IMG/VR virus record: IMGVR_UViG_2851955134_000002 | DNA: 38,621 bases | Reading direction: 5' to 3' (one strand) | From: a virus | Lineage: Duplodnaviria; Heunggongvirae; Uroviricota; Caudoviricetes | Part shown: positions 4,981 through 37,625 of the stretch, in pieces | Position numbering within the stretch: position 1 is the stretch's first letter | Layout of the letters: the number at the start of each line of letters is the position of its first letter | The notes under the pieces: generated by a model | Told to the model about the DNA's origin: nothing | Seen by the model: only the letters and a program-made list of their open reading frames with translations | The model's database searches: none | Translations under genes and position numbers: made by a program

Positions 4981-5370
4981 ATGATTGACCGTCACGACTT
5001 CGTAAAATGGGTGCGCACACAGGACACCCGTCTGGCCCCAAAACTTCAGGCAATGTTTGATTTTTATCTCCGTGCCCGTGCCAGCCGGGCACGCACCACA
5101 AAACCGGAGAACGCAGACACCCTTTATTTCACCGTGGACGACTGTTACCGCGTGGCCTTTACACCACAAGGTCTGGGCCTGTACACCCTGACACCACACG
5201 GCGACTCCCTGTTGGCGTATTACGACTCCCCGGCCTCCGTATTTGCGGCAATGCTGGCGCATCGTACCGCTGGCGGGTGTGCATCGCTGAGTGAATACAC
5301 CGCTGAATTTAACCGCCTTTCCGTCATCTTTTCGCAGGAGTGGCAGAGCGTGACGGGATACCAGCCATGA
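4981..5370 (+). CDS. Hypothetical protein immediately upstream of gene A
   Basis: 129-aa ATG ORF; no recognisable motif. Confidence 0.45.
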   Translation: MIDRHDFVKWVRTQDTRLAPKLQAMFDFYLRARASRARTTKPENADTLYFTVDDCYRVAFTPQGLGLYTLTPHGDSLLAYYDSPASVFAAMLAHRTAGGCASLSEYTAEFNRLSVIFSQEWQSVTGYQP

Positions 5371-8207
5371 GTGAGTTTGCATGGAGCTGGAATGAACCGC
5401 AGCCAGCTATTGATCCGGACGACTTCGCGAACTTCAGCCGGTTGCCAAAAACCGGACTGCAACGCGCCATTCGTTACTACCTTGAGGCAGACAAAAAGGC
5501 CCAGGAAGAACAGGAAGCGAAGGGAGAAGCCTTTTTCGCACAATCCGCCATGGGTAAAAAACTCATGGCATCCCTTGAGGAAGCCGGGCAACACAAAAAA
5601 CTGATAAAAAACATCATCAGTAAGCGCCAGGAAATAAAGCAAGACCCGGTGGCCCGTGCATTTGTCACACTAAAGGCGCTTCCCGTTTATCTGCGAGAAC
5701 CCCTGAGCCGCCACCTCTCGTTCCTGCGCAAGAAGCAGGAAGCCGATCGTCAGAAAGGCAAAAAGAGCTGGCAGGCCGAACGCTACGCGCGCGGAAACCT
5801 GCGCAAAATATTCGAACGTCTGAAGCGCACCGACAGCCGCTGGCTGACACAGGGGTATCGCTCCCTTGCCGGACGCGAACGCCTGGACGATTTGCTTTAC
5901 CTGCCGCAGCTCAACAAACACCAGATACAGACGCTGGCCACCATGACGGCGGCGATGTTCAGCAGCACCTTCGAAAAACTCTGCGATGGCTTTGGCGCGA
6001 CCGATGGTGAGCTGACCATGGATGTAACGCTGAAGGCGTATCAGATGCTGGCCCGCATGGCGTTACACCTGCACACCATGCCGCCGCATTATGACGCACT
6101 GACAACAGACAAAGACCGGAAGAACGAACCGGACACGGAGCTGCTGCCAGGCGCAATCCTTCGCCTGACCTGTGCGGAATGGTGGAAACGCAAACTGTGG
6201 CTTTTACGTTGCGAGTGGAGAGAAGAACAACTCCGCGCCGCCTGTCTGGTTTCCAGAAAAACATCGCCCTATCTGAGCCAGGACGCATTAAGCGAGTTTC
6301 GCGCACAGCGCGAGAAAACACGCGATTTCCTGAAAAGTTTCATGCTGGAAAACGAAGATGGGTTCACGATTGATCTCGAGACAGTGTATTACGCGGGAGT
6401 AAGTAACCCGGTTCACCGTAAGGCAGAAATGATGGCCACCATGAAGGGGCTGGAACTTCTGGCCGAAGCCCGTGGCGACAAAGCGGTGTTTCTGACTGTC
6501 ACCTGCCCGTCAAAATACCACGCCACAACAGAGAACGGTCATCCGAATCCCAAATGGAACGGGGCCACCATGCGCGACTCCAGCGATTACCTGGTTAACA
6601 CGTTTTTTGCGGCGGTCCGCAAGAAACTGAACCGCGACGGCCTGCGCTGGTATGGCATCCGCACGGTGGAGCCTCACCATGACGGCACCGTGCACTGGCA
6701 TATGATGGTCTTTGCTCATCCGGAAGAAATCGACACCATTGTGTCCCACACCCGCGATATTGCCATTCAGGAAGATCGTCACGAGCTGGGTGATGATATT
6801 ACCCCACGCTTTAAGGCGGAGTACGTCGACGGCTCAAAAGGCACACCGACCAGCTACATCGCCACCTACATCGGGAAAAACCTGGACAGCCGTGCCGTGG
6901 ATGGCATCGACCCGAAAACGGGCAAGCCACGCGTTGACCACGAAACCGGAAAATCAATGGCCGAGAGCGTGGAACGCGCCATCGGCTGGGCGCGCCTTCA
7001 CCGTGTCCGCCAGTTCCAGTTCTTTGGTATCCCCTCCCGTCAGGTGTGGCGTGAACTCCGCCGCCTTGCCAGCCAGATGGCACGCAACCCGGAAGGCCCG
7101 CAACGGCTGAAGGATGACGCAATGGATGCGGTACTCGCTGCCGCTGATGCCGGATGTTTTGCCACCTACATAGAGAAACAGGGCGGCGTACTTGTTCCAC
7201 GCAAAGACTACCTGATTCGCACCGCCTACGACCTCGCAGAAGAGCTGAACGATTACGGCGAACAGAGCGCACAGATTTATGGGATCTGGTCACCACTCAT
7301 CGGGGAATCCTCCCGTGTGTGCACGCACCCGGATAACTGGAAGCTGGTAAGACGTAAACCGGAAGCGGAAGACAACACCCGCGAAAATGGTTTTGACCTT
7401 CAGGGCGGCCCTGCCGCCCCTTGGACTCGTGGCAATAACTGTCCCCGTGTACAGGAAACAGACAACAACGGGACAGAACAACCGGAAGAACGGCCAGCAC
7501 CGTGGCCGCAGATTCCTGACGGCATTGAAGTGAATGAATGGATGCGCTCACTGAAACGGCACGAACGCCGGGCGCTGATGCGTTCGCTGCGTGACAAACA
7601 GGCAAAAAACAGCAGCGATGAAATGCAGAACTGGACGCAGGGCCGCAAACAGCCGCGGCCTTTGCCTGATAACCACGAGTTACTCGCTAAAGAATGGCGG
7701 GAGTCTGCTGAATCTCTCGGCCTGCATATCGGTGAACAGCAGATGCAGCACCTGTTACGGGGCGGCAGTCTGTACGTTGACGGCAGCATCATTGCACCGC
7801 AGGGATTTGAAATTGTACGCAAACCGGATACCCGACCGGACAGCCGAATCACGCAGCTCTGGCAACGCCTGAGCCGTAATCACGGCGTAAGCAGCACGGA
7901 GATCCGCCATAACCCGGTCGCCAGCTATCTGGAACAGCTGGGGGCATCAGACCCTGAAGCCGCCGCACGCCTGGCATCCACACTTCAGCAGGACCAGAAC
8001 ACCATGAAAACACCCGTTACCGTGCTTTCTGACATGCTGCGCGCCATCCGCGACGCAGAGCACGCACAGAGAATCAGTGAAACCACTGAACGCGCCCGCC
8101 GCAAAGCAGACCTGCTGCGGGGTGGCCTGACCAGTGGAAACAAAAAACAGACAGAAACGGGATTCACAAATCCCGTAAATGAGCAAAAAACGCGCCGCGA
8201 TATATGA
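5367..8207 (+). CDS. A: Replication initiation endonuclease (P2 gpA family, rolling-circle HUH type)
   Basis: Large ORF with an HUH-like motif (EPHHDGTVHWHMMVF) and paired tyrosines (SYIATYIGKN) as in P2 A; the track starts on GTG at 5340, and 5349 (GTG) or 5367 (ATG) are both possible starts. Confidence 0.85.
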   Translation: MSEFAWSWNEPQPAIDPDDFANFSRLPKTGLQRAIRYYLEADKKAQEEQEAKGEAFFAQSAMGKKLMASLEEAGQHKKLIKNIISKRQEIKQDPVARAFVTLKALPVYLREPLSRHLSFLRKKQEADRQKGKKSWQAERYARGNLRKIFERLKRTDSRWLTQGYRSLAGRERLDDLLYLPQLNKHQIQTLATMTAAMFSSTFEKLCDGFGATDGELTMDVTLKAYQMLARMALHLHTMPPHYDALTTDKDRKNEPDTELLPGAILRLTCAEWWKRKLWLLRCEWREEQLRAACLVSRKTSPYLSQDALSEFRAQREKTRDFLKSFMLENEDGFTIDLETVYYAGVSNPVHRKAEMMATMKGLELLAEARGDKAVFLTVTCPSKYHATTENGHPNPKWNGATMRDSSDYLVNTFFAAVRKKLNRDGLRWYGIRTVEPHHDGTVHWHMMVFAHPEEIDTIVSHTRDIAIQEDRHELGDDITPRFKAEYVDGSKGTPTSYIATYIGKNLDSRAVDGIDPKTGKPRVDHETGKSMAESVERAIGWARLHRVRQFQFFGIPSRQVWRELRRLASQMARNPEGPQRLKDDAMDAVLAAADAGCFATYIEKQGGVLVPRKDYLIRTAYDLAEELNDYGEQSAQIYGIWSPLIGESSRVCTHPDNWKLVRRKPEAEDNTRENGFDLQGGPAAPWTRGNNCPRVQETDNNGTEQPEERPAPWPQIPDGIEVNEWMRSLKRHERRALMRSLRDKQAKNSSDEMQNWTQGRKQPRPLPDNHELLAKEWRESAESLGLHIGEQQMQHLLRGGSLYVDGSIIAPQGFEIVRKPDTRPDSRITQLWQRLSRNHGVSSTEIRHNPVASYLEQLGASDPEAAARLASTLQQDQNTMKTPVTVLSDMLRAIRDAEHAQRISETTERARRKADLLRGGLTSGNKKQTETGFTNPVNEQKTRRDI

Positions 8208-8283: not shown

Positions 8284-9243
8284 ATGAAAATTTGTATCGA
8301 CGACGGCTCCACCAACATCAAGCTGGCATGGACTGAGAACGGCGAACGCCGCAACGCCATCAGCCCGAACAGCTTCAAGTCGGAATGGTCTGCGCCGTTC
8401 GGTGGCACGCAGCCCGCGAACTACATGCTTGATGGCGTGCGCTATGGTTTTGATCCGGTCAGCGATCGCTTTGTCCAGACGACCGACACGCAATACCAAT
8501 ACAGCGATGTGAATGTCATTGCCATTCATCACGCGCTGGTCAAATCAGGCATCACGCCACAGGAGGTGGATGTGGTTGTCACCCTGCCACTGAGCGAGTA
8601 TTTCGACACAAACGCACAGCCGGACATGGCCAACATCAACCGCAAAAAAGCGAACGTTATGCGCCCGGTGGAGTACCAGAACGGCGAAGCATTCACTATC
8701 CGTAACGTGCGGGTTATGCCTGAATCCATTCCGGCTGGCTTTAAGGCACTGGCTGACATGAGTCCATTTGAATCTCTGCTGATTGTGGATTTAGGCGGAA
8801 CCACGCTGGATGTGGCAAAGGTTCAGGGGCAACTGGCAGGCATCAGCCAGGTATTTTGCGATCCACACGTAGGCGTTTCACTGATGACCGATGCCGTACT
8901 GTCGGTGATGGCCACTAACGGTATGCGTACCAGTCACCACATCGCCAATACCATTATCGAACATCGCCATGATGAAGCCTGGCTGCGCCAGCACATCCAC
9001 AATGTCGCGCATTACGACAGCCTGATGGCGGTTATTCGTGAAAAGGAAGAAACTCTGAAACAACGCGTGATCCGCGCGCTGGCGGGGTTTTCGGGGTACG
9101 GTCGGGTGATGGTTGTCGGTGGAGGGGCGGAGATTGTGGCTCCGGCGGTACATGACGCTTACGGCCTCAACGCAAACATTCACACAACACCGGAGCCACA
9201 GTTTGCCCTGGTTAATGGACTCCATGACATGGACAGGGAGTGA
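8284..9243 (+). CDS. parM: ParM/StbA-like actin-family partition ATPase
   Basis: N-terminus MKICIDDGSTNIKLAW...ISPNSFK...YQYSDVNVIAIHHAL...VMPESIPAGF...IVDLGGTTLD...MVVGGGAE closely tracks plasmid R1 ParM as I recall it, at similar length (319 aa). Confidence 0.85.
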   Translation: MKICIDDGSTNIKLAWTENGERRNAISPNSFKSEWSAPFGGTQPANYMLDGVRYGFDPVSDRFVQTTDTQYQYSDVNVIAIHHALVKSGITPQEVDVVVTLPLSEYFDTNAQPDMANINRKKANVMRPVEYQNGEAFTIRNVRVMPESIPAGFKALADMSPFESLLIVDLGGTTLDVAKVQGQLAGISQVFCDPHVGVSLMTDAVLSVMATNGMRTSHHIANTIIEHRHDEAWLRQHIHNVAHYDSLMAVIREKEETLKQRVIRALAGFSGYGRVMVVGGGAEIVAPAVHDAYGLNANIHTTPEPQFALVNGLHDMDRE

Positions 9244-9559: not shown

Positions 9560-9937
9560 CATCAGGGCGTATTCGCCCTGCCACCAATCCCATAACATAA
9601 AGAACGGGGTGCAAATCACTATGCACCCCGTTCCAATACAAACCATCAGAAGATCTACACATCTTTCTCAAATGGCCAAGTAATCGAGCTGGTTCAGGAA
9701 TAAGCATGCTGCCAACACAAGTGAAGGAGATAAAACTGTAGAACTGATCAATCGTTGGAAACAAGTATTGACAATATGTTCGAGTAACCCAACTGGATAG
9801 ATTTTATGCTGATTATCCATACAGTAAAAAAGTGAGGATACTCTTTGAATAACGCCAGCAAGAGTGGTAACATTAGGCACTGATTTTCATCAATGCAGTT
9901 ACCAGCTTACACAAGCTTATGTTTTATTGGGGGTTTT

Positions 9938-11020
9938 ATGGTAAACGTGAGGGAGGATGAACTTTTCAAACTCATCGAGCAAGGCATCAAAGGCAACGCA
10001 AATGCATTTACACTCCTATGCAGAAAGATGATTAACAACATCCGTAAAAATGATGAGGCTTTAGCTTCTAAGCTGGCTTCGTTAATTGCTGAGGGAACAG
10101 TATTACGTGGGGCATCTAGTAAGGCTCCTATGCCTGTGGATGGAGACTCCAGACGAAACCTTTTGCAGGAAACATCTGTCAACGCAATTGTTGAAGAACC
10201 TGTATGGAATACGGATATCTCAAAGAAGCTGGAGTCAATTGTTAACGAAAGAGAGAATGCTGTTTCTTTGTTCAAAGCTGGTCTTGAACCTGTGAAGACG
10301 GTTTTACTTTCTGGCCCGCCAGGCGTAGGCAAAACAATGTCCGCACATTGGCTTGCTGCAAAGTTAAATTTACCTCTTTTAACATTGGATCTCTCATCTG
10401 TAATGAGTTCTCTTTTGGGAAAAACAGGTAATAATATTAAATCCGTTATGGATTATGCCAAAGAGAAACCATGTGTCCTTTTGCTTGATGAATTTGATGC
10501 TGTTGCAAAAAGACGTGATGATGACAGGGACGTTGGAGAATTAAAACGTTTAGTTACTGTACTCCTACAGACCATAGATGAGTGGCCAGCGACCTCGCTT
10601 CTTGTTGCTGCGACTAATCACCCTGATATCTTAGATCCGGCTGTTTGGCGTCGATTTGAGCACATCCTTAAATTTAATATGCCATCAGTAGAACTGATAG
10701 ATAGATATTTAGTCAATCATAATATTGAACCTGAACTATCTAAAAAACTTGCACCATTATTAGATGGCATGTCCTTTGCCATCATTAACCGTATTTTGAA
10801 TTTCTCCAAAAAGAATGAGGTACTTAGAAATATTCCATTTGAAAGCTCATTAATAGAAGCCGTAATTACGGAGAGGGTTTCATTGGATGAATTTAGCGAT
10901 AATGATCTCAATATAATTAAATATCATTTTGACGGTTTTTCAAATAGGAAGATAGCTGAATTAGTTGGTGTTTCACATCCAACAATCGCGAATAAATTAC
11001 AAAAGTGGGGGATTAAATGA
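9938..11020 (+). CDS. AAA+ ATPase with C-terminal helix-turn-helix; first gene of candidate defence pair
   Basis: Walker A (LLSGPPGVGKT), Walker B (VLLLDEFD), sensor-1 (LLVAATN), arginine-finger region (AVWRRFE) and a C-terminal HTH (SNRKIAELVGVSHPTIANKL); AT-rich; start at ATG 9938 (GGGGG upstream) preferred over the track's 9893. Confidence 0.8.
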   Translation: MVNVREDELFKLIEQGIKGNANAFTLLCRKMINNIRKNDEALASKLASLIAEGTVLRGASSKAPMPVDGDSRRNLLQETSVNAIVEEPVWNTDISKKLESIVNERENAVSLFKAGLEPVKTVLLSGPPGVGKTMSAHWLAAKLNLPLLTLDLSSVMSSLLGKTGNNIKSVMDYAKEKPCVLLLDEFDAVAKRRDDDRDVGELKRLVTVLLQTIDEWPATSLLVAATNHPDILDPAVWRRFEHILKFNMPSVELIDRYLVNHNIEPELSKKLAPLLDGMSFAIINRILNFSKKNEVLRNIPFESSLIEAVITERVSLDEFSDNDLNIIKYHFDGFSNRKIAELVGVSHPTIANKLQKWGIK

Positions 11021-13221
11021 TGGAAAGGAACTTACTTTTAGGTAACGGTCATGTTCTGACAAAAAAGGAACCTTTGCCTAAAGGAAGGGATGGTAAGCGC
11101 TATCCCTATACTCTTGAAGAAGTAAGGGAGCATTTAAACCCAGAGATTGATACTTTACTCTCACGCTTTCGCAGTTTGGATGATGCGGCTAAGCCAAGGG
11201 GGGAGAGTGTATTCAATTTAACTTTACACCCAGCGTTTTTGGGTAAAAGCTACTTTCCGGAAGGATTACTTAGAGCGACAGGTTTACGGGATGTCGGTAG
11301 CCGTCAGGTAATCATTCGCCCACGGAAAGCGGCACGTCAGTGCGATCAGAATAAGGACTTAGTAACGGCGCAACTGTTTGTTAGCGGTGATGATGATGCC
11401 GTTATAAGATTTAAGGAAATTTTAAATTCCCCTACAGCTCCGAAGGGCGTACAAAAGGATTTGATCGAAATTGAAAGTGTTAGCTTTTTTGAAGGAAAAG
11501 AGAGAGCACGCAATTTTGAGCATGCGAAAAGTGATTTGATAAAATTTGAAGTGGTTCTTCATGCTGGGGTTGAAGACGATGATATCGTTAAAGCCTATAT
11601 TAGCTATGCGGCACAATATGGTGTCTCTGTTGATTACAAAAGTAGAATCCAAGTTGGTGGACTGACTTTCATCGTTGCACACGCGCGACCTGAAGATATG
11701 AAAAAAACACTCGATTTTTCATTAATCCGCGTTGTGCGGCCGATGCCGTCTCTCAGGTGTACTCAGCCGAACATTGTCAGAAAGTTATCTAATATAGTTA
11801 CACCGGAGCTCCCTAATTCTAAAGCTGTTCTTGAATCCGAACGTATTGCCATTTTTGATGGTGGCTTGGGGACAGCTGACTTGAGTAATTGGGTTACGGA
11901 ATACGTGTATCCAGACACCAAAGAAACAAGCGGATTATTATTGCAGCACGGTAATGAAGTAACATCCACTTTCTTATTCGGACGTGTCGAGGAAAATGCA
12001 CCTTCTTTTAAAAGACCGTTTATGAATGTAGATCATTATAGAGTTCTTTCACCGACATCAGGTGACAATGGCAATTGGGATTTATTTGATGTCCTTAAGA
12101 AAATACAGTCCGTTCTTGATAGTGGTGACTATAAGTTCGCTAATCTAAGTATTGGTCCTCATCTTCCAATTGGTGATGATGAGGTTCATGTATGGACTGC
12201 TGTTTTAGACCAAATCTGTGCTAAGCATGGGATATTACTTACTGTTGCTGTTGGGAATGATGGCAATGAGGACGGTGATGCAGCGAGAATACAACCTCCT
12301 TCCGATATGGTAAACGCGCTAGCGATTGGTGCTGCTGATCGTAGCGGTGAAAAATGGGGGCGGGCACCATATAGCTGTATTGGCCCAGGCAGAAGCCCCG
12401 GATTCGTTAAACCTGATGGTGTTATTTTTGGTGGAAGCGACGACGAGCCTTTTTACACTTACAACCCTCTGCTTGGTTCTATAGTTGGAGTTCAAGGAAC
12501 CAGTTATGCCTCTCCATTAGCATTGAGAACGGCCGCTGGAGTTGCGGCTCTATCAGGAACTCCATTGAACACCATTGCATTGAAAGCGTTGCTTGTTCAT
12601 CATGCTGAAACATCAAGAAAATATTCGCGTGAACATATCGGTTGGGGACGGTTTAGTGAGGATCCTAACGTTTTAATCGATTGTCCAAATGATACTGCTA
12701 CAGTAATTTACTATGGTTCATTAGCAAAAAATAAATATTTAAGGGCACCGATCCCATTCCCTGATGTTCCATTTGACGAAGCATTTGAGCTTACCGCTAC
12801 TTTATGCATTCAAACCCCAGTAGATCCTGAACATTCAGTAAACTATACAAGGGCCGGTATGCAGGTAACTTTCCGCCCAAGATTCGGCCTTGACGATACC
12901 GATACAGATGATTTCTTTGGTCAAAAAAGCCAGTATAAGACTGAAAGGGAGTGTAGGAGTGAAGGTCATAAGTGGGAAACTTGTTTGCACAGAAGCAAAA
13001 AGTTCAGTACTGATACATTATTAAGCGATCCAGTTTTTGATATACGGTATCATGCCCGAGATTCTTCGCGCCATGTTAAGGGAGTTTCAGCCCCTGATAT
13101 GCAATATGCGATGGTAATAAGCGTAAGGGTAAAAGACTTTGATTTATATAATGTTATTCGCCAGCGATATACAATTCTGAATCCTATTCAACTGCGCACA
13201 CAAATTTCTCTCGACACGTAA
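11017..13221 (+). CDS. S8 subtilisin-like serine protease with about 270-aa N-terminal domain of unknown function; second gene of candidate defence pair
   Basis: Subtilase motifs in the canonical D-H-S order (IAIFDGGLG, LQHGNEVTS, oxyanion-hole VAVGNDG, GTSYASP); start overlaps the ATPase stop (ATGA), implying coupled translation. Confidence 0.8.
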   Translation: MMERNLLLGNGHVLTKKEPLPKGRDGKRYPYTLEEVREHLNPEIDTLLSRFRSLDDAAKPRGESVFNLTLHPAFLGKSYFPEGLLRATGLRDVGSRQVIIRPRKAARQCDQNKDLVTAQLFVSGDDDAVIRFKEILNSPTAPKGVQKDLIEIESVSFFEGKERARNFEHAKSDLIKFEVVLHAGVEDDDIVKAYISYAAQYGVSVDYKSRIQVGGLTFIVAHARPEDMKKTLDFSLIRVVRPMPSLRCTQPNIVRKLSNIVTPELPNSKAVLESERIAIFDGGLGTADLSNWVTEYVYPDTKETSGLLLQHGNEVTSTFLFGRVEENAPSFKRPFMNVDHYRVLSPTSGDNGNWDLFDVLKKIQSVLDSGDYKFANLSIGPHLPIGDDEVHVWTAVLDQICAKHGILLTVAVGNDGNEDGDAARIQPPSDMVNALAIGAADRSGEKWGRAPYSCIGPGRSPGFVKPDGVIFGGSDDEPFYTYNPLLGSIVGVQGTSYASPLALRTAAGVAALSGTPLNTIALKALLVHHAETSRKYSREHIGWGRFSEDPNVLIDCPNDTATVIYYGSLAKNKYLRAPIPFPDVPFDEAFELTATLCIQTPVDPEHSVNYTRAGMQVTFRPRFGLDDTDTDDFFGQKSQYKTERECRSEGHKWETCLHRSKKFSTDTLLSDPVFDIRYHARDSSRHVKGVSAPDMQYAMVISVRVKDFDLYNVIRQRYTILNPIQLRTQISLDT

Positions 13222-36630: not shown

Positions 36631-36888
36631 GTGTCTTTTCCGTGTCCTTTTTGTGGTGCGAGCACACGCACCCGCACCAGTCGCGCAGCGAACGATACCG
36701 GAACTGTCCGCTGGAAACTCTGCCAGTGCAACAACCCGGAATGCAGTCTCTCCTTCTCGACGCTGGAGAGTTTCGACAAAATCACTGTTAAACGTTATGG
36801 CAGCACTTCACAGGATATTCCGTGGCAAAGCCTGCCTGCGTCTCACCGGGGTGATGCGCAGTTGTCACTGCCGTTTCCGGTAATGTGA
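36631..36888 (+). CDS. ogr: Ogr/Delta-family zinc-finger late transcription activator
   Basis: GTG start 8 nt after AAGGAGG; CPFCG...(22 aa)...CQCNNPEC four-cysteine arrangement typical of Ogr. Confidence 0.75.
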   Translation: MSFPCPFCGASTRTRTSRAANDTGTVRWKLCQCNNPECSLSFSTLESFDKITVKRYGSTSQDIPWQSLPASHRGDAQLSLPFPVM

Positions 36889-37104
36889 TCGCCTGTATCT
36901 GTTTTTGACCCTGGAATTTTATTTGGAGAATTAACTCAGAAAACGGTAAATTACGCGCGGGTGCCTTTCGGCTGATGGTCGGAGGGAATACCCGAAAGCC
37001 GGATGTGGAAAGGCCCCGGAAAACATCTCTGTTTAACCGAGGCCCTAACCGTCTACCCTAAGCAAGTGACAGGTTAGCGCCTCTCCGAAAAAGGAGCAAG
37101 CGCT

Positions 37105-37245
37105 ATGTCGCAAAAATCGCTTACGGCCATCACGTTCTGCGTGACGGCAATCCTCATCATCTGGATGCTGCACGGTTCGCTGTGCGAAATACGGATGAGC
37201 TTCTGGGGAGCGGAATTTGCGGCGTTCTTACAGTGTAAGCAGTAA
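37105..37245 (+). CDS. hok: Hok/Gef-family type I toxin (46 aa)
   Basis: MSQKSLTAITFCVTAILIIWMLHGSLCEIRMSFWGAEFAAFLQCKQ: TM helix, then the SLCEI and AAFL-CK motifs of Hok/HokA; AAGGAG RBS 8 nt upstream; an 8-bp-stem hairpin follows the stop (37265-37286). Confidence 0.7.
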   Translation: MSQKSLTAITFCVTAILIIWMLHGSLCEIRMSFWGAEFAAFLQCKQ

Positions 37246-37331
37246 GGAAACCGCGACGGGGGAGCAATCCCCCGTCAATCGGTTGCCAGGGTAAGGTCGA
37301 CAAGGCACCCTATCTCACAGATATGAACAAA

Positions 37332-37363
37332 CCCGCAGCGTAAAAACTGCGGGTTTTCTTTTT
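37332..37363 (+). terminator. Rho-independent terminator downstream of the hok-like gene
   Basis: CCCGCAG-N8-CTGCGGG hairpin followed by TTTTCTTTTT. Confidence 0.55.
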
Positions 37364-37440
37364 GGCACCCTCACACGTAAGGGCACCATACACAAGACAA
37401 AGCCCGCAAAATTTGCGGGCTTACTCTACATCTCGAAAAT

Positions 37441-37459: not shown

Positions 37460-37625
37460 GCGATGATATAAATCCTTTTATATCAATAAATTAAATATTT
37501 ATTTTTTTCATCAACAAGGATTTTCACGTTTGTGTTACCTGTATGAGACGAGAGTTAACCGGACAAGTGTGCCATAATCTCGCGGCCAGGCATACTTGCG
37601 AAGATTTCAGGTATAAGGATACGTA

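What the first reader, a model, noticed from the sequence alone, without database searches (positions are those of the whole stretch)
37105..37363. Hok/Gef-family type I toxin between ogr and attR
A 46-aa ORF missed by the ORF track (under 60 aa) carries a TM helix and the conserved SLCEI...AAFL-CK core of Hok/HokA, with a strong RBS, a stable hairpin after the stop and a downstream terminator. It sits in the ogr-att intergenic region, a second classic cargo slot. If an antisense Sok-like RNA is present, this is a post-segregational killing or abortive-infection module on the prophage.
Basis: partly seen in the sequence, partly recalled or inferred. Interest (0 to 1): 0.6.

Follow-up and report, generated by a model that had tools for sequence, protein, structure and literature searches.

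The report
Known Hok toxin locus on prophage
The small gene is a real Hok-family membrane toxin with its antisense-RNA antidote, carried at the right end of a P2-like prophage; this kind of locus is common, already annotated, and the identical peptide has already been reported to kill E. coli when overexpressed.

Summary
The 46-aa ORF at 37105-37245 exists and is a Hok/Gef toxin: Pfam HOK_GEF scores 29.9 bits against a cut-off of 22, and phrog_251 gives E = 1.3e-22. The full unit runs from about 36923 to 37363 and has nearly all the anatomy of the plasmid R1 hok/sok locus:
- a hok promoter;
- a roughly 405-nt mRNA whose 5' end (GGGUGCCUU) is perfectly complementary to a 3' fold-back element (AAGGCACCC, 37302-37310), with a second local partner at 37009-37017;
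- a hairpin that buries the hok ribosome-binding site and start codon;
- the stem-loop after the stop codon, then a terminator;
- on the minus strand, a Sok-like antisense gene (TTGCTC-17-TAACCT promoter, about 60-nt RNA, roughly 37064 to 37003).

Thirty related sequences support the fold with compensatory base changes. One thing is missing. There is no canonical mok frame overlapping hok, only a 24-codon leader ORF that stops 28 nt upstream.

The locus lies in prophage DNA, between ogr and the attR core near 37505. About 1,500 of 5,426 complete E. coli genomes carry the module, as do P2-like and Stx phages, and it is annotated there. A 2026 preprint tested the identical peptide (72_1621) and reports toxicity. 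The finding is correct but already known. The biological role was not tested.

The parts
36923..36952 (+). Putative hok mRNA promoter: -35 TTGGAG (36923-36928), 18-nt spacer, -10 TAAATT (36947-36952), then 6 nt to the GGG start.
   Evidence: Read from the sequence. It falls below the threshold of the promoter scanner. An R1-type locus has the same geometry, TATGAT plus 6 nt plus GGCGCUU. The TTG of the -35 and the TA..TT of the -10 are invariant in the six-sequence alignment. Similarity to other copies starts at about 36940.
36959..37363 (+). Predicted full-length hok mRNA, about 405 nt.
   Evidence: The minimum-energy fold is -176.1 kcal/mol, z = -7.0 against shuffles, with the 5' and 3' ends paired. 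On 30 homologues 95.2% of cells pair, against about 42% in the slid controls. Twenty pairs show compensatory change, against 4-8 in the slid controls. Rfam RF01794 matches the leader, 36959-37118, at 43.4 bits, E = 4.8e-8.
36959..36968 (+). tac-like 5' element, GGGUGCCUUU.
   Evidence: It is a perfect 9-nt complement of 37302-37310. It alternatively pairs with 37009-37017. Both pairings are kept in all 30 homologues.
37003..37077 (+). 24-codon leader ORF (MWKGPGKHLCLTEALTVYPKQVTG). It is in frame with hok but closed by TAG 37075-37077, 28 nt before the hok ATG. It is the only candidate mok substitute.
   Evidence: The extent of the leader ORF varies among homologues.
37009..37017 (+). Local partner of the 5' end, AAAGGCCCC (ucb-like). 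It forms the tac stem once the 3' end is removed.
   Evidence: Folds of 36959-37020 and 36959-37298. 99.3% of cells pair in the homologues, but the pairs are almost invariant.
37012..37045 (+). Hairpin corresponding to the Sok target region. Its complement is the body and terminator hairpin of the Sok-like RNA.
   Evidence: Rfam alignment. Helix 5 has 12 pairs, 3 of them with compensatory change, and 95.3% of cells paired.
37071..37099 (-). Sok-like promoter: -35 TTGCTC (37099-37094), 17-nt spacer, -10 TAACCT (37076-37071).
   Evidence: Position and 17-nt spacing are kept in 28 of 30 unique variants, the exceptions being an 18-nt spacer (Sp5 copy) and L012, where the script picked different hexamers. 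Allowed variants are TTGACT, TTTACT and TATCCT. An R1-type locus has TTGCGC-17-TATCCT at the equivalent place. The site scores 6 of 12 and is not called by the scanner.
37003..37064 (-). Predicted Sok-like antisense RNA, about 60 nt: a single-stranded 5' tail, then the hairpin GGCCUCGG...CCGGGGCC, then UUUCC.
   Evidence: Fold of 37000-37065 on the minus strand: -26.3 kcal/mol, z = -3.2. The ends are inferred, not mapped.
37068..37109 (+). Hairpin that sequesters the hok ribosome-binding site (AAGGAG, 37091-37096) and the hok AUG.
   Evidence: Fold: -18.7 kcal/mol, z = -3.1. Helices 7 and 8 are 92-96% paired.
37105..37245 (+). hok coding sequence, 46 aa.
   Evidence: Pfam PF01848 29.9 bits against a cut-off of 22. 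phrog_251 E = 1.3e-22. Identical to peptide 72_1621, reported toxic.
37249..37284 (+). Stem-loop just after the stop codon. It is the counterpart of the 3' stem-loop that protects the truncated R1 hok mRNA.
   Evidence: Helix 17 has 9 pairs, 3 of them compensatory, and 99.6% of cells paired. The role in R1 is taken from PMC9841398.
37302..37310 (+). fbi-like fold-back element, AAGGCACCC.
   Evidence: The GGCACCC core is kept in 29 of the 30 homologues (GGCACTC in L023). Similarity to the Stx-phage copy ends here.
37329..37363 (+). Intrinsic terminator of the hok mRNA.
   Evidence: It has the same fbi-then-terminator order as R1.

Best explanation
This is a hok/sok-type type I toxin-antitoxin locus carried as cargo at the right end of a P2-like prophage in E. 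coli.

The plus strand gives a roughly 405-nt mRNA (36959-37363) encoding a 46-aa membrane toxin. As made, the mRNA is locked shut. Its 5' end pairs with the fold-back element near the 3' end. A separate hairpin buries the hok ribosome-binding site and start codon.

By analogy with R1, slow 3' trimming back to the stem-loop after the stop codon removes the fold-back element. The 5' end then re-pairs locally at 37009-37017 and the leader becomes accessible.

A short, unstable antisense RNA is made from the minus-strand promoter at 37099-37071. It pairs with the leader (about 37003-37064), which should block translation and mark the duplex for cleavage. If the antisense RNA stops being made, for example after loss of the element or a transcription shut-off, the stable mRNA is translated and the cell is damaged.

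Shown here: family membership, the RNA architecture and its conservation, and the location. Taken from the literature: toxicity of the identical peptide. Inferred: the transcript ends, the processing step, Sok action, native expression of this copy, and the biological role.
For: - Family: Pfam HOK_GEF is above its cut-off and phrog_251 gives E = 1.3e-22. All seven conserved Hok residues and the transmembrane segment are present. NCBI's annotation pipeline (PGAP) calls the same gene 'Hok/Gef family protein' in the same ogr-hok-flk position.
- RNA: the leader matches Rfam RF01794 at E = 4.8e-8. The full-length fold closes the 5' end on the 3' end, z = -7. With the 3' end removed, the 5' end refolds onto 37009-37017. 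Covariation on 30 homologues gives 20 compensatory pairs against 4-8 in the slid controls, and 0 of 500 shuffles reach the observed value.
- Antisense promoter: the same position and 17-nt spacing are kept in 28 of 30 unique variants. The geometry matches an R1-type locus.
- Comparison with R1: the element order is the same, namely promoter, tac, target hairpin, ribosome-binding-site hairpin, CDS, stem-loop, fbi, terminator.
- Toxicity: the identical peptide 72_1621 was cloned as LRP137. Only three other constructs were non-toxic.
- Location: prophage DNA, since the attR core starts at 37505. Sequenced P2-like phages P88, P884B11, 500465-2 and Chuche carry the module.
Against: - There is no canonical mok. 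The frame that corresponds to R1 mok is closed by TAA at 37059-37061 and has no ATG, GTG or TTG after it. The only leader ORF stops 28 nt before the hok ATG. In R1, translation of mok up to the hok ribosome-binding site is mandatory (PMC9841398), so this copy might not translate Hok.
- The Rfam score of 43.4 bits is below the gathering score of 59.
- Both promoters match the consensus weakly (6-7 of 12) and were not called by the scanner.
- No transcript data exist for this locus.
- The tac, fbi and local-partner pairs are invariant, so they carry no covariation signal.
- The tested structure was derived from the window's own fold, which favours it in the controls.
Confidence: 0.9

Rival explanations
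1. This particular copy is a translationally silent or decaying hok locus. The RNA elements and the toxin frame are intact, but without a leader frame that reaches the hok ribosome-binding site the toxin is never made from its own mRNA. Several inactivated chromosomal hok loci of K-12 behave this way.
For: - The mok-equivalent frame is closed and the leader ORF ends at -28.
- The ribosome-binding motif ahead of the leader start is GAAAG here, against GAAGG in nearly all homologues.
- 69 of 106 related copies do have a leader ORF that reads into hok.
- In R1, premature stops in mok upstream of hok abolish toxicity.
Against: - The stop at -28 occurs in 10 different leader sequences (18 copies). 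The 81%-identical Stx-phage lineage has a 24-codon leader ORF ending at the same TAG, reached from a different start codon and frame.
- A ribosome terminating at UAG 37075-37077 would sit on the 5' arm of the hairpin (37075-37086) that hides the ribosome-binding site. Coupling is therefore physically plausible (inference).
- Salmonella copies lack any conserved leader ORF, yet keep hok and every RNA element.
- In the close group, 16 hok codons vary only synonymously and 4 change the amino acid. That sample was picked by protein identity, so it is biased.
Confidence: 0.25
2. The locus serves the phage at induction rather than acting as an addiction or defence module. Loss of the antisense RNA on prophage induction would release Hok, which would help lysis and phage release, as reported for hokW-sokW of prophage Sp5.
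For: hokW-sokW increases Sp5 release about two-fold after mitomycin C (PMC8621323). The module here is phage-borne and is packaged in P2-like and Stx phages.
Against: HokW is a different, HokC-like peptide, 31% identical and at another Sp5 locus. No experiment addresses this cluster. The roles are not mutually exclusive.
Confidence: 0.2
3. The ORF is a chance open frame in the ogr-att intergenic region, and the hairpins are simply the ogr/late-operon terminator.
For: Many short ORFs of this length exist in the region.
Against: The profile matches are above threshold. The module is conserved across four enterobacterial genera, Escherichia, Salmonella, Citrobacter and Klebsiella. The structure covaries. 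The peptide is reported toxic.
Confidence: 0.01

Closest known systems
hok/sok (parB) of plasmid R1, the paradigm type I toxin-antitoxin locus
   Same: - The order of elements and the geometry match: -10 box plus 6 nt plus a G-rich start, and a 5' end complementary to a fold-back element that sits just before a terminator.
- A stem-loop follows directly after the stop codon.
- The antisense promoter (TTGnnC-17-TAnCCT) overlaps the complement of the hok ribosome-binding site.
- The antisense hairpin GCCUCG...CGGGGC is shared.
- mRNA lengths are about 405 nt here and about 400 nt in R1.
   Different: - The peptide is 46 aa rather than 52. The conserved residues and the SLCEIR and AAF motifs are shared.
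- There is no mok frame overlapping hok.
- The Rfam score is 43 bits here, against 87 bits for an R1-type locus.
- The carrier is a prophage, not a conjugative plasmid. Only 34 of 72,556 plasmids carry this cluster.
Hok cluster 72 of Escalera-Maurer et al. (bioRxiv 10.1101/2025.08.07.668861), peptide 72_1621
   Same: The amino-acid sequence is identical. The peptide is catalogued as part of a high-abundance cluster and reported toxic on arabinose induction.
   Different: That study expressed only the coding sequence. It states that Mok, Sok and the mRNA ends were not analysed.
HokA of E. coli K-12
   Same: It is the best NCBIfam match and 43% identical over the whole peptide, sharing M.QK, W-M, SLCE and AAFL.CK.
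   Different: The NCBIfam score of 34 bits is far below the equivalog cut-off of 89. HokA sits at a different chromosomal locus, which is disrupted by IS150 in K-12.
hokW-sokW of Sakai prophage 5 (PMC8621323)
   Same: It is a phage-borne hok/sok locus. The label 'MokW-like host killing' (phrog_251) is applied to this peptide in phage records.
   Different: HokW is the 51-aa, HokC-like product within ECs_1245, 31% identical. The true Sp5 counterpart of the window's module is a second hok between lom and ECs_1237 that is not annotated in the Sakai record.

Membership tests
Hok/Gef toxin family (Pfam PF01848) | Profile score at or above the curated gathering score | tested here: met
   29.9 bits against 22, E = 4.1e-7, residues 7-44. 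phrog_251 gives E = 1.3e-22.
Hok/Gef toxin family (Pfam PF01848) | Peptide of about 50 aa with one N-terminal transmembrane helix and the conserved residues M1, C16, T18, L30, C31, E32, E41 (logo numbering) | tested here: met
   46 aa. Hydrophobic segment at residues 8-22. All seven residues are present at an offset of 4.
Hok/Gef toxin family (Pfam PF01848) | Toxic to the cell when expressed | not testable with these tools
   The literature covers this: the identical peptide 72_1621 (plasmid LRP137) is among the 42 of 45 constructs reported toxic.
hok/sok/mok locus (R1 parB type) | Long-range pairing of the mRNA 5' end (tac) with a 3' fold-back element (fbi) placed before the terminator | tested here: met
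   9-nt perfect complement, 36959-36967 with 37302-37310. It forms in the minimum-energy fold, z = -7. It is kept in 30 of 30 homologues.
hok/sok/mok locus (R1 parB type) | Alternative local partner for the 5' end (tac stem) once the 3' end is removed | tested here: met
   Folds. 99.3% of cells pair in homologues, but the pairs are invariant, so there is no covariation support.
hok/sok/mok locus (R1 parB type) | Antisense Sok gene in the leader, with its own promoter and a terminator hairpin | tested here: met
   This is sequence-level evidence only. The promoter is TTGCTC-17-TAACCT, kept with 17-nt spacing in 28 of 30 unique variants. The hairpin folds at -26.3 kcal/mol. An R1-type locus has the same layout. 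Expression was not shown.
hok/sok/mok locus (R1 parB type) | mok reading frame that starts in the leader and is translated at least up to the hok ribosome-binding site | tested here: not met
   The mok-equivalent frame is closed by TAA 37059-37061 with no start codon after it. The leader ORF 37003-37077 stops 14 nt before the ribosome-binding site. 69 of 106 related copies do have a read-through leader ORF.
hok/sok/mok locus (R1 parB type) | Stable stem-loop after the stop codon that forms the 3' end of the processed mRNA | tested here: met
   37249-37284, -25.3 kcal/mol. Three compensatory pairs. Processing itself was not tested.
Rfam RF01794 (sok / hok leader) | Score at or above the gathering score of 59 bits | tested here: not met
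   43.4 bits, E = 4.8e-8, full-length model match. An R1-type locus scores 87.2 bits and the K-12 sokA region 70.1 bits.
HokA equivalog (NCBIfam NF007290) | Score at or above the cut-off of 89 bits | tested here: not met
   34 bits. 43% identity to K-12 HokA.
hokW-sokW (Sp5) orthologue | Orthology to the characterised 51-aa HokW (ECs_1245) | tested here: not met
   31% identity over 35 residues. The Sp5 counterpart of this module lies at a different locus.

The most novel reading that the evidence does not exclude
Hok cluster 72 may run on a variant control circuit without a classical mok. Under this reading, Hok translation is opened by a short leader ORF. Its stop codon (UAG 37075-37077) overlaps the complement of the Sok -10 box and sits at the foot of the hairpin that hides the ribosome-binding site. 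Alternatively, some mok-independent route is used, as suggested by Salmonella copies that have no conserved leader ORF at all. The ogr-att slot of P2-like phages would then be a dedicated landing site for this module, which is sometimes amplified to two or three tandem copies.
Probability: 0.3. Interest if true: 0.35.

Novelty: already known. Interest (0 to 1): 0.12.

Why it matters
For annotation, it adds one small toxic gene and an antisense RNA gene that ORF tracks with a 60-aa floor miss. It also warns that deleting or cloning this end of the prophage without the antisense promoter could be toxic.

Biologically it is one more example of hok being enriched in prophages. The only open questions it touches are how cluster-72 hok is translated without a classical mok, and what hok does for a P2-like phage: retention, exclusion of other phages, or help with lysis.

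Tried and rejected
- I first took the 81%-identical Stx-phage/Sp5 copy to be the characterised hokW. Fetching all of Sp5 showed that hokW is ECs_1245, a different HokC-like gene.
- My first Pfam test of ogr used the wrong frame (36632) and found nothing. The correct frame, starting at 36631, gives Ogr_Delta.
An alignment of five variants worked.
- I looked for a conserved mok. The AUGUGG site at 37003 starts read-through ORFs in many E. coli copies and in C. braakii, where the stop overlaps the hok start as UGAUG. It is absent from the Salmonella and Klebsiella copies, so no single mok model fits the cluster.
- I tested whether 37364-37425 is the remnant 3' end of a second hok module. Only 12-14-nt matches turned up, so this is unsupported.
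- PADLOC has no model that matches the peptide.
- A search for papers linking hok to P2-like prophages or ogr found nothing specific. HokST of Salmonella is plasmid-borne and unrelated to this slot.

Full report
**Observation.** An AAGGAG motif sits 8 nt upstream. A very stable stem-loop follows the stop codon: 37249-37284, -25.3 kcal/mol, z = -4.7. A terminator-like hairpin with a T-run lies at 37329-37363.

The upstream gene is ogr (36631-36888; Pfam Ogr_Delta 45.5 bits against a cut-off of 26.3), preceded by gpD. Downstream is the host gene flk (NCBIfam equivalog, 505 bits). Homology to the empty pdxB-flk site of E. coli K-12 begins at 37505, so the ORF lies in prophage DNA about 260 nt inside attR.

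**Identity of the peptide.** Pfam HOK_GEF scores 29.9 bits, above its gathering score of 22. The phage family phrog_251 ('MokW-like host killing') matches at E = 1.3e-22. NCBIfam's closest model is HokA, but at 34 bits it is far below the equivalog cut-off of 89. Identity is 43% to K-12 HokA and 31% to HokW.

The hydrophobic segment at residues 8-22 matches those of Hok R1 and HokA. The seven residues conserved in more than 80% of 1,264 Hok peptides are all present.

**The locus is larger than the finding.** Similarity to related copies starts at about 36940 and, in the most distant copies, ends at about 37310. Within that span the sequence has the architecture of the R1 hok mRNA.

- A weak promoter, TTGGAG-18-TAAATT, is followed after 6 nt by GGGUGCC. 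This is the geometry seen upstream of an R1-type hok on an IncFII plasmid.
- The first nine bases, GGGUGCCUU, are the exact complement of AAGGCACCC at 37302-37310, just before the terminator. The 405-nt transcript folds with these ends paired, at -176 kcal/mol, z = -7.0.
- Removing the 3' end makes the 5' end re-pair with AAAGGCCCC at 37009-37017. That is also the structure drawn by the Rfam model, which matches 36959-37118 at E = 4.8e-8 but below its gathering score.
- A hairpin at 37068-37109 buries the hok ribosome-binding site and start codon.

**Support from related sequences.** I aligned 30 distinct homologues from E. coli, E. albertii, Salmonella, Citrobacter and phages. On this alignment 95.2% of the predicted pairs form, against about 42% when partners are slid. 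Twenty pairs show changes on both sides, against 4-8 in the slid controls, and no shuffle out of 500 reaches the observed values.

Two caveats apply. The structure came from the window's own fold, which favours it. And the tac, fbi and local-partner pairs never vary, so they are conserved rather than covarying.

**Antisense gene.** On the minus strand, TTGCTC (37099-37094), 17 nt, then TAACCT (37076-37071) precede a predicted RNA of about 60 nt. It has a free 5' tail and a GC-rich hairpin followed by UUUCC.

The same position and 17-nt spacing recur in 28 of the 30 unique variants found. The variants are promoter-compatible: TTGACT, TTTACT and TATCCT. An R1-type locus has TTGCGC-17-TATCCT at the equivalent position overlapping the hok ribosome-binding site. 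That this element is the Sok promoter in R1 rests on established literature, not on a test here.

The hexamers are weak, the scanner did not call them, and they overlap constrained sense-strand elements. Expression is therefore inferred.

**What does not fit: mok.** In R1, translation of mok at least up to the hok ribosome-binding site is required for Hok synthesis, whereas translation past the hok start is not (PMC9841398). In the window, the frame equivalent to R1 mok is closed by TAA at 37059-37061 and has no start codon after it. The only leader ORF (37003-37077, 24 codons) ends at a TAG 28 nt before the hok ATG.

Among 106 related copies the picture is mixed:

- 69 have a leader ORF reading into hok.
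- 18 stop at -28, as here.
- The rest stop at other positions.

The Stx-phage lineage also has a 24-codon ORF ending at the same TAG, but from a GTG in another frame. A Citrobacter copy ends its leader ORF in UGAUG over the hok start. Salmonella and Klebsiella copies have no conserved leader start at all.

The TAG overlaps the complement of the antisense -10 box, which by itself explains its invariance. A ribosome stopping there would cover the 5' arm of the hairpin that hides the ribosome-binding site. Coupling is therefore plausible but unproven. I put the chance that this copy is translationally silent at about one in four.

**How common and how well known.** The 611-nt query around the locus finds matches in 1,557 of 5,426 complete E. 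coli genomes. A few of those matches cover only the terminator region.

- PGAP annotates the gene as 'Hok/Gef family protein', including in a strain with the same ogr-hok-flk arrangement at 95% identity.
- P2-like phages P88, P884B11, 500465-2, Chuche and PhiR44_2, and about 100 Stx phages, carry the module.
- Protein relatives are named Hok/Gef in E. coli, Shigella, Salmonella and Klebsiella.
- Only 34 of 72,556 plasmids carry it.

A 2026 preprint catalogues 32,532 hok loci, shows enrichment in prophages, and lists the identical peptide as 72_1621 in a high-abundance cluster. The peptide was cloned as LRP137. Only three other constructs out of 45 were non-toxic. That paper did not analyse Mok, Sok or the mRNA ends.

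The characterised phage locus hokW-sokW of Sp5 is a different, HokC-like gene.

**Function.** Nothing here tests the biological role. Three roles are compatible with a phage-borne hok/sok locus: killing of cells that lose the prophage, exclusion of other phages, and help with lysis on induction as reported for hokW. The preprint found no enrichment of hok next to defence systems and leaves the prophage role open.

**Verdict.** The kind of locus, this cluster and even this exact peptide are already described. The only mildly unusual point is the missing classical mok frame.

Noticed in passing
window 9893-13221 (+): Two adjacent genes match the IetA/IetS anti-phage defence pair. IetA is the 375-aa AAA ATPase (PADLOC E = 2.9e-89). 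IetS is the 734-aa subtilase (PADLOC E = 5.1e-41; Pfam Peptidase_S8). They lie downstream of the P2 gpA-like replication gene (5340-8207), in the known P2 cargo hotspot.
   Followed up: partly
window 8284-9243 (+): A 319-aa ParM/StbA actin-like segregation protein (Pfam StbA_N E = 1.8e-82, ParM C-terminal domain E = 2.1e-65) sits inside a P2-like prophage. Together with hok/sok it is a plasmid-type maintenance function.
   Followed up: no
L101 and L102, 1-2641; L099 and L100, 2501-3135: Salmonella enterica P2-like prophages carry gpD-ogr followed by three tandem hok modules of this cluster. Other Salmonella contigs carry two. Each copy has its own 5' GGGUGCC start, antisense promoter and fold-back element.
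   Followed up: partly
L005 1520-1879 (E. coli O157:H7 Sakai, prophage Sp5, between lom ECs_1236 and ECs_1237): Sp5 has a second hok locus of this cluster (46 aa, 74% identical). It is not annotated in the Sakai record, and it is distinct from the characterised hokW (ECs_1245). Work on hokW-sokW deletions in Sp5 may need to take it into account.
   Followed up: partly
window 37364-37422: After the hok terminator come two more motifs resembling the fold-back element (GGCACCC at 37364-37370, GGGCACC at 37381-37387). A second GC-rich hairpin follows (AAGCCCGCAAAATTTGCGGGCTT, 37400-37422) and scores as a minus-strand terminator. Only short matches to the 3' ends of Salmonella hok modules were found, so the meaning is unknown.
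   Followed up: partly
L002 3446-3742: In several E. coli strains the same prophage end carries an extra TM2-domain gene inserted between hok and flk. This shows that the ogr-att interval accepts further cargo.
   Followed up: no
L103 344-403: In an IncFII plasmid whose Hok is 100% identical to R1 Hok, the ATG at the mok position lies 57 nt, 19 codons, upstream of and in frame with hok. The reading frame of mok relative to hok is therefore not fixed, even among close R1 relatives.
   Followed up: no
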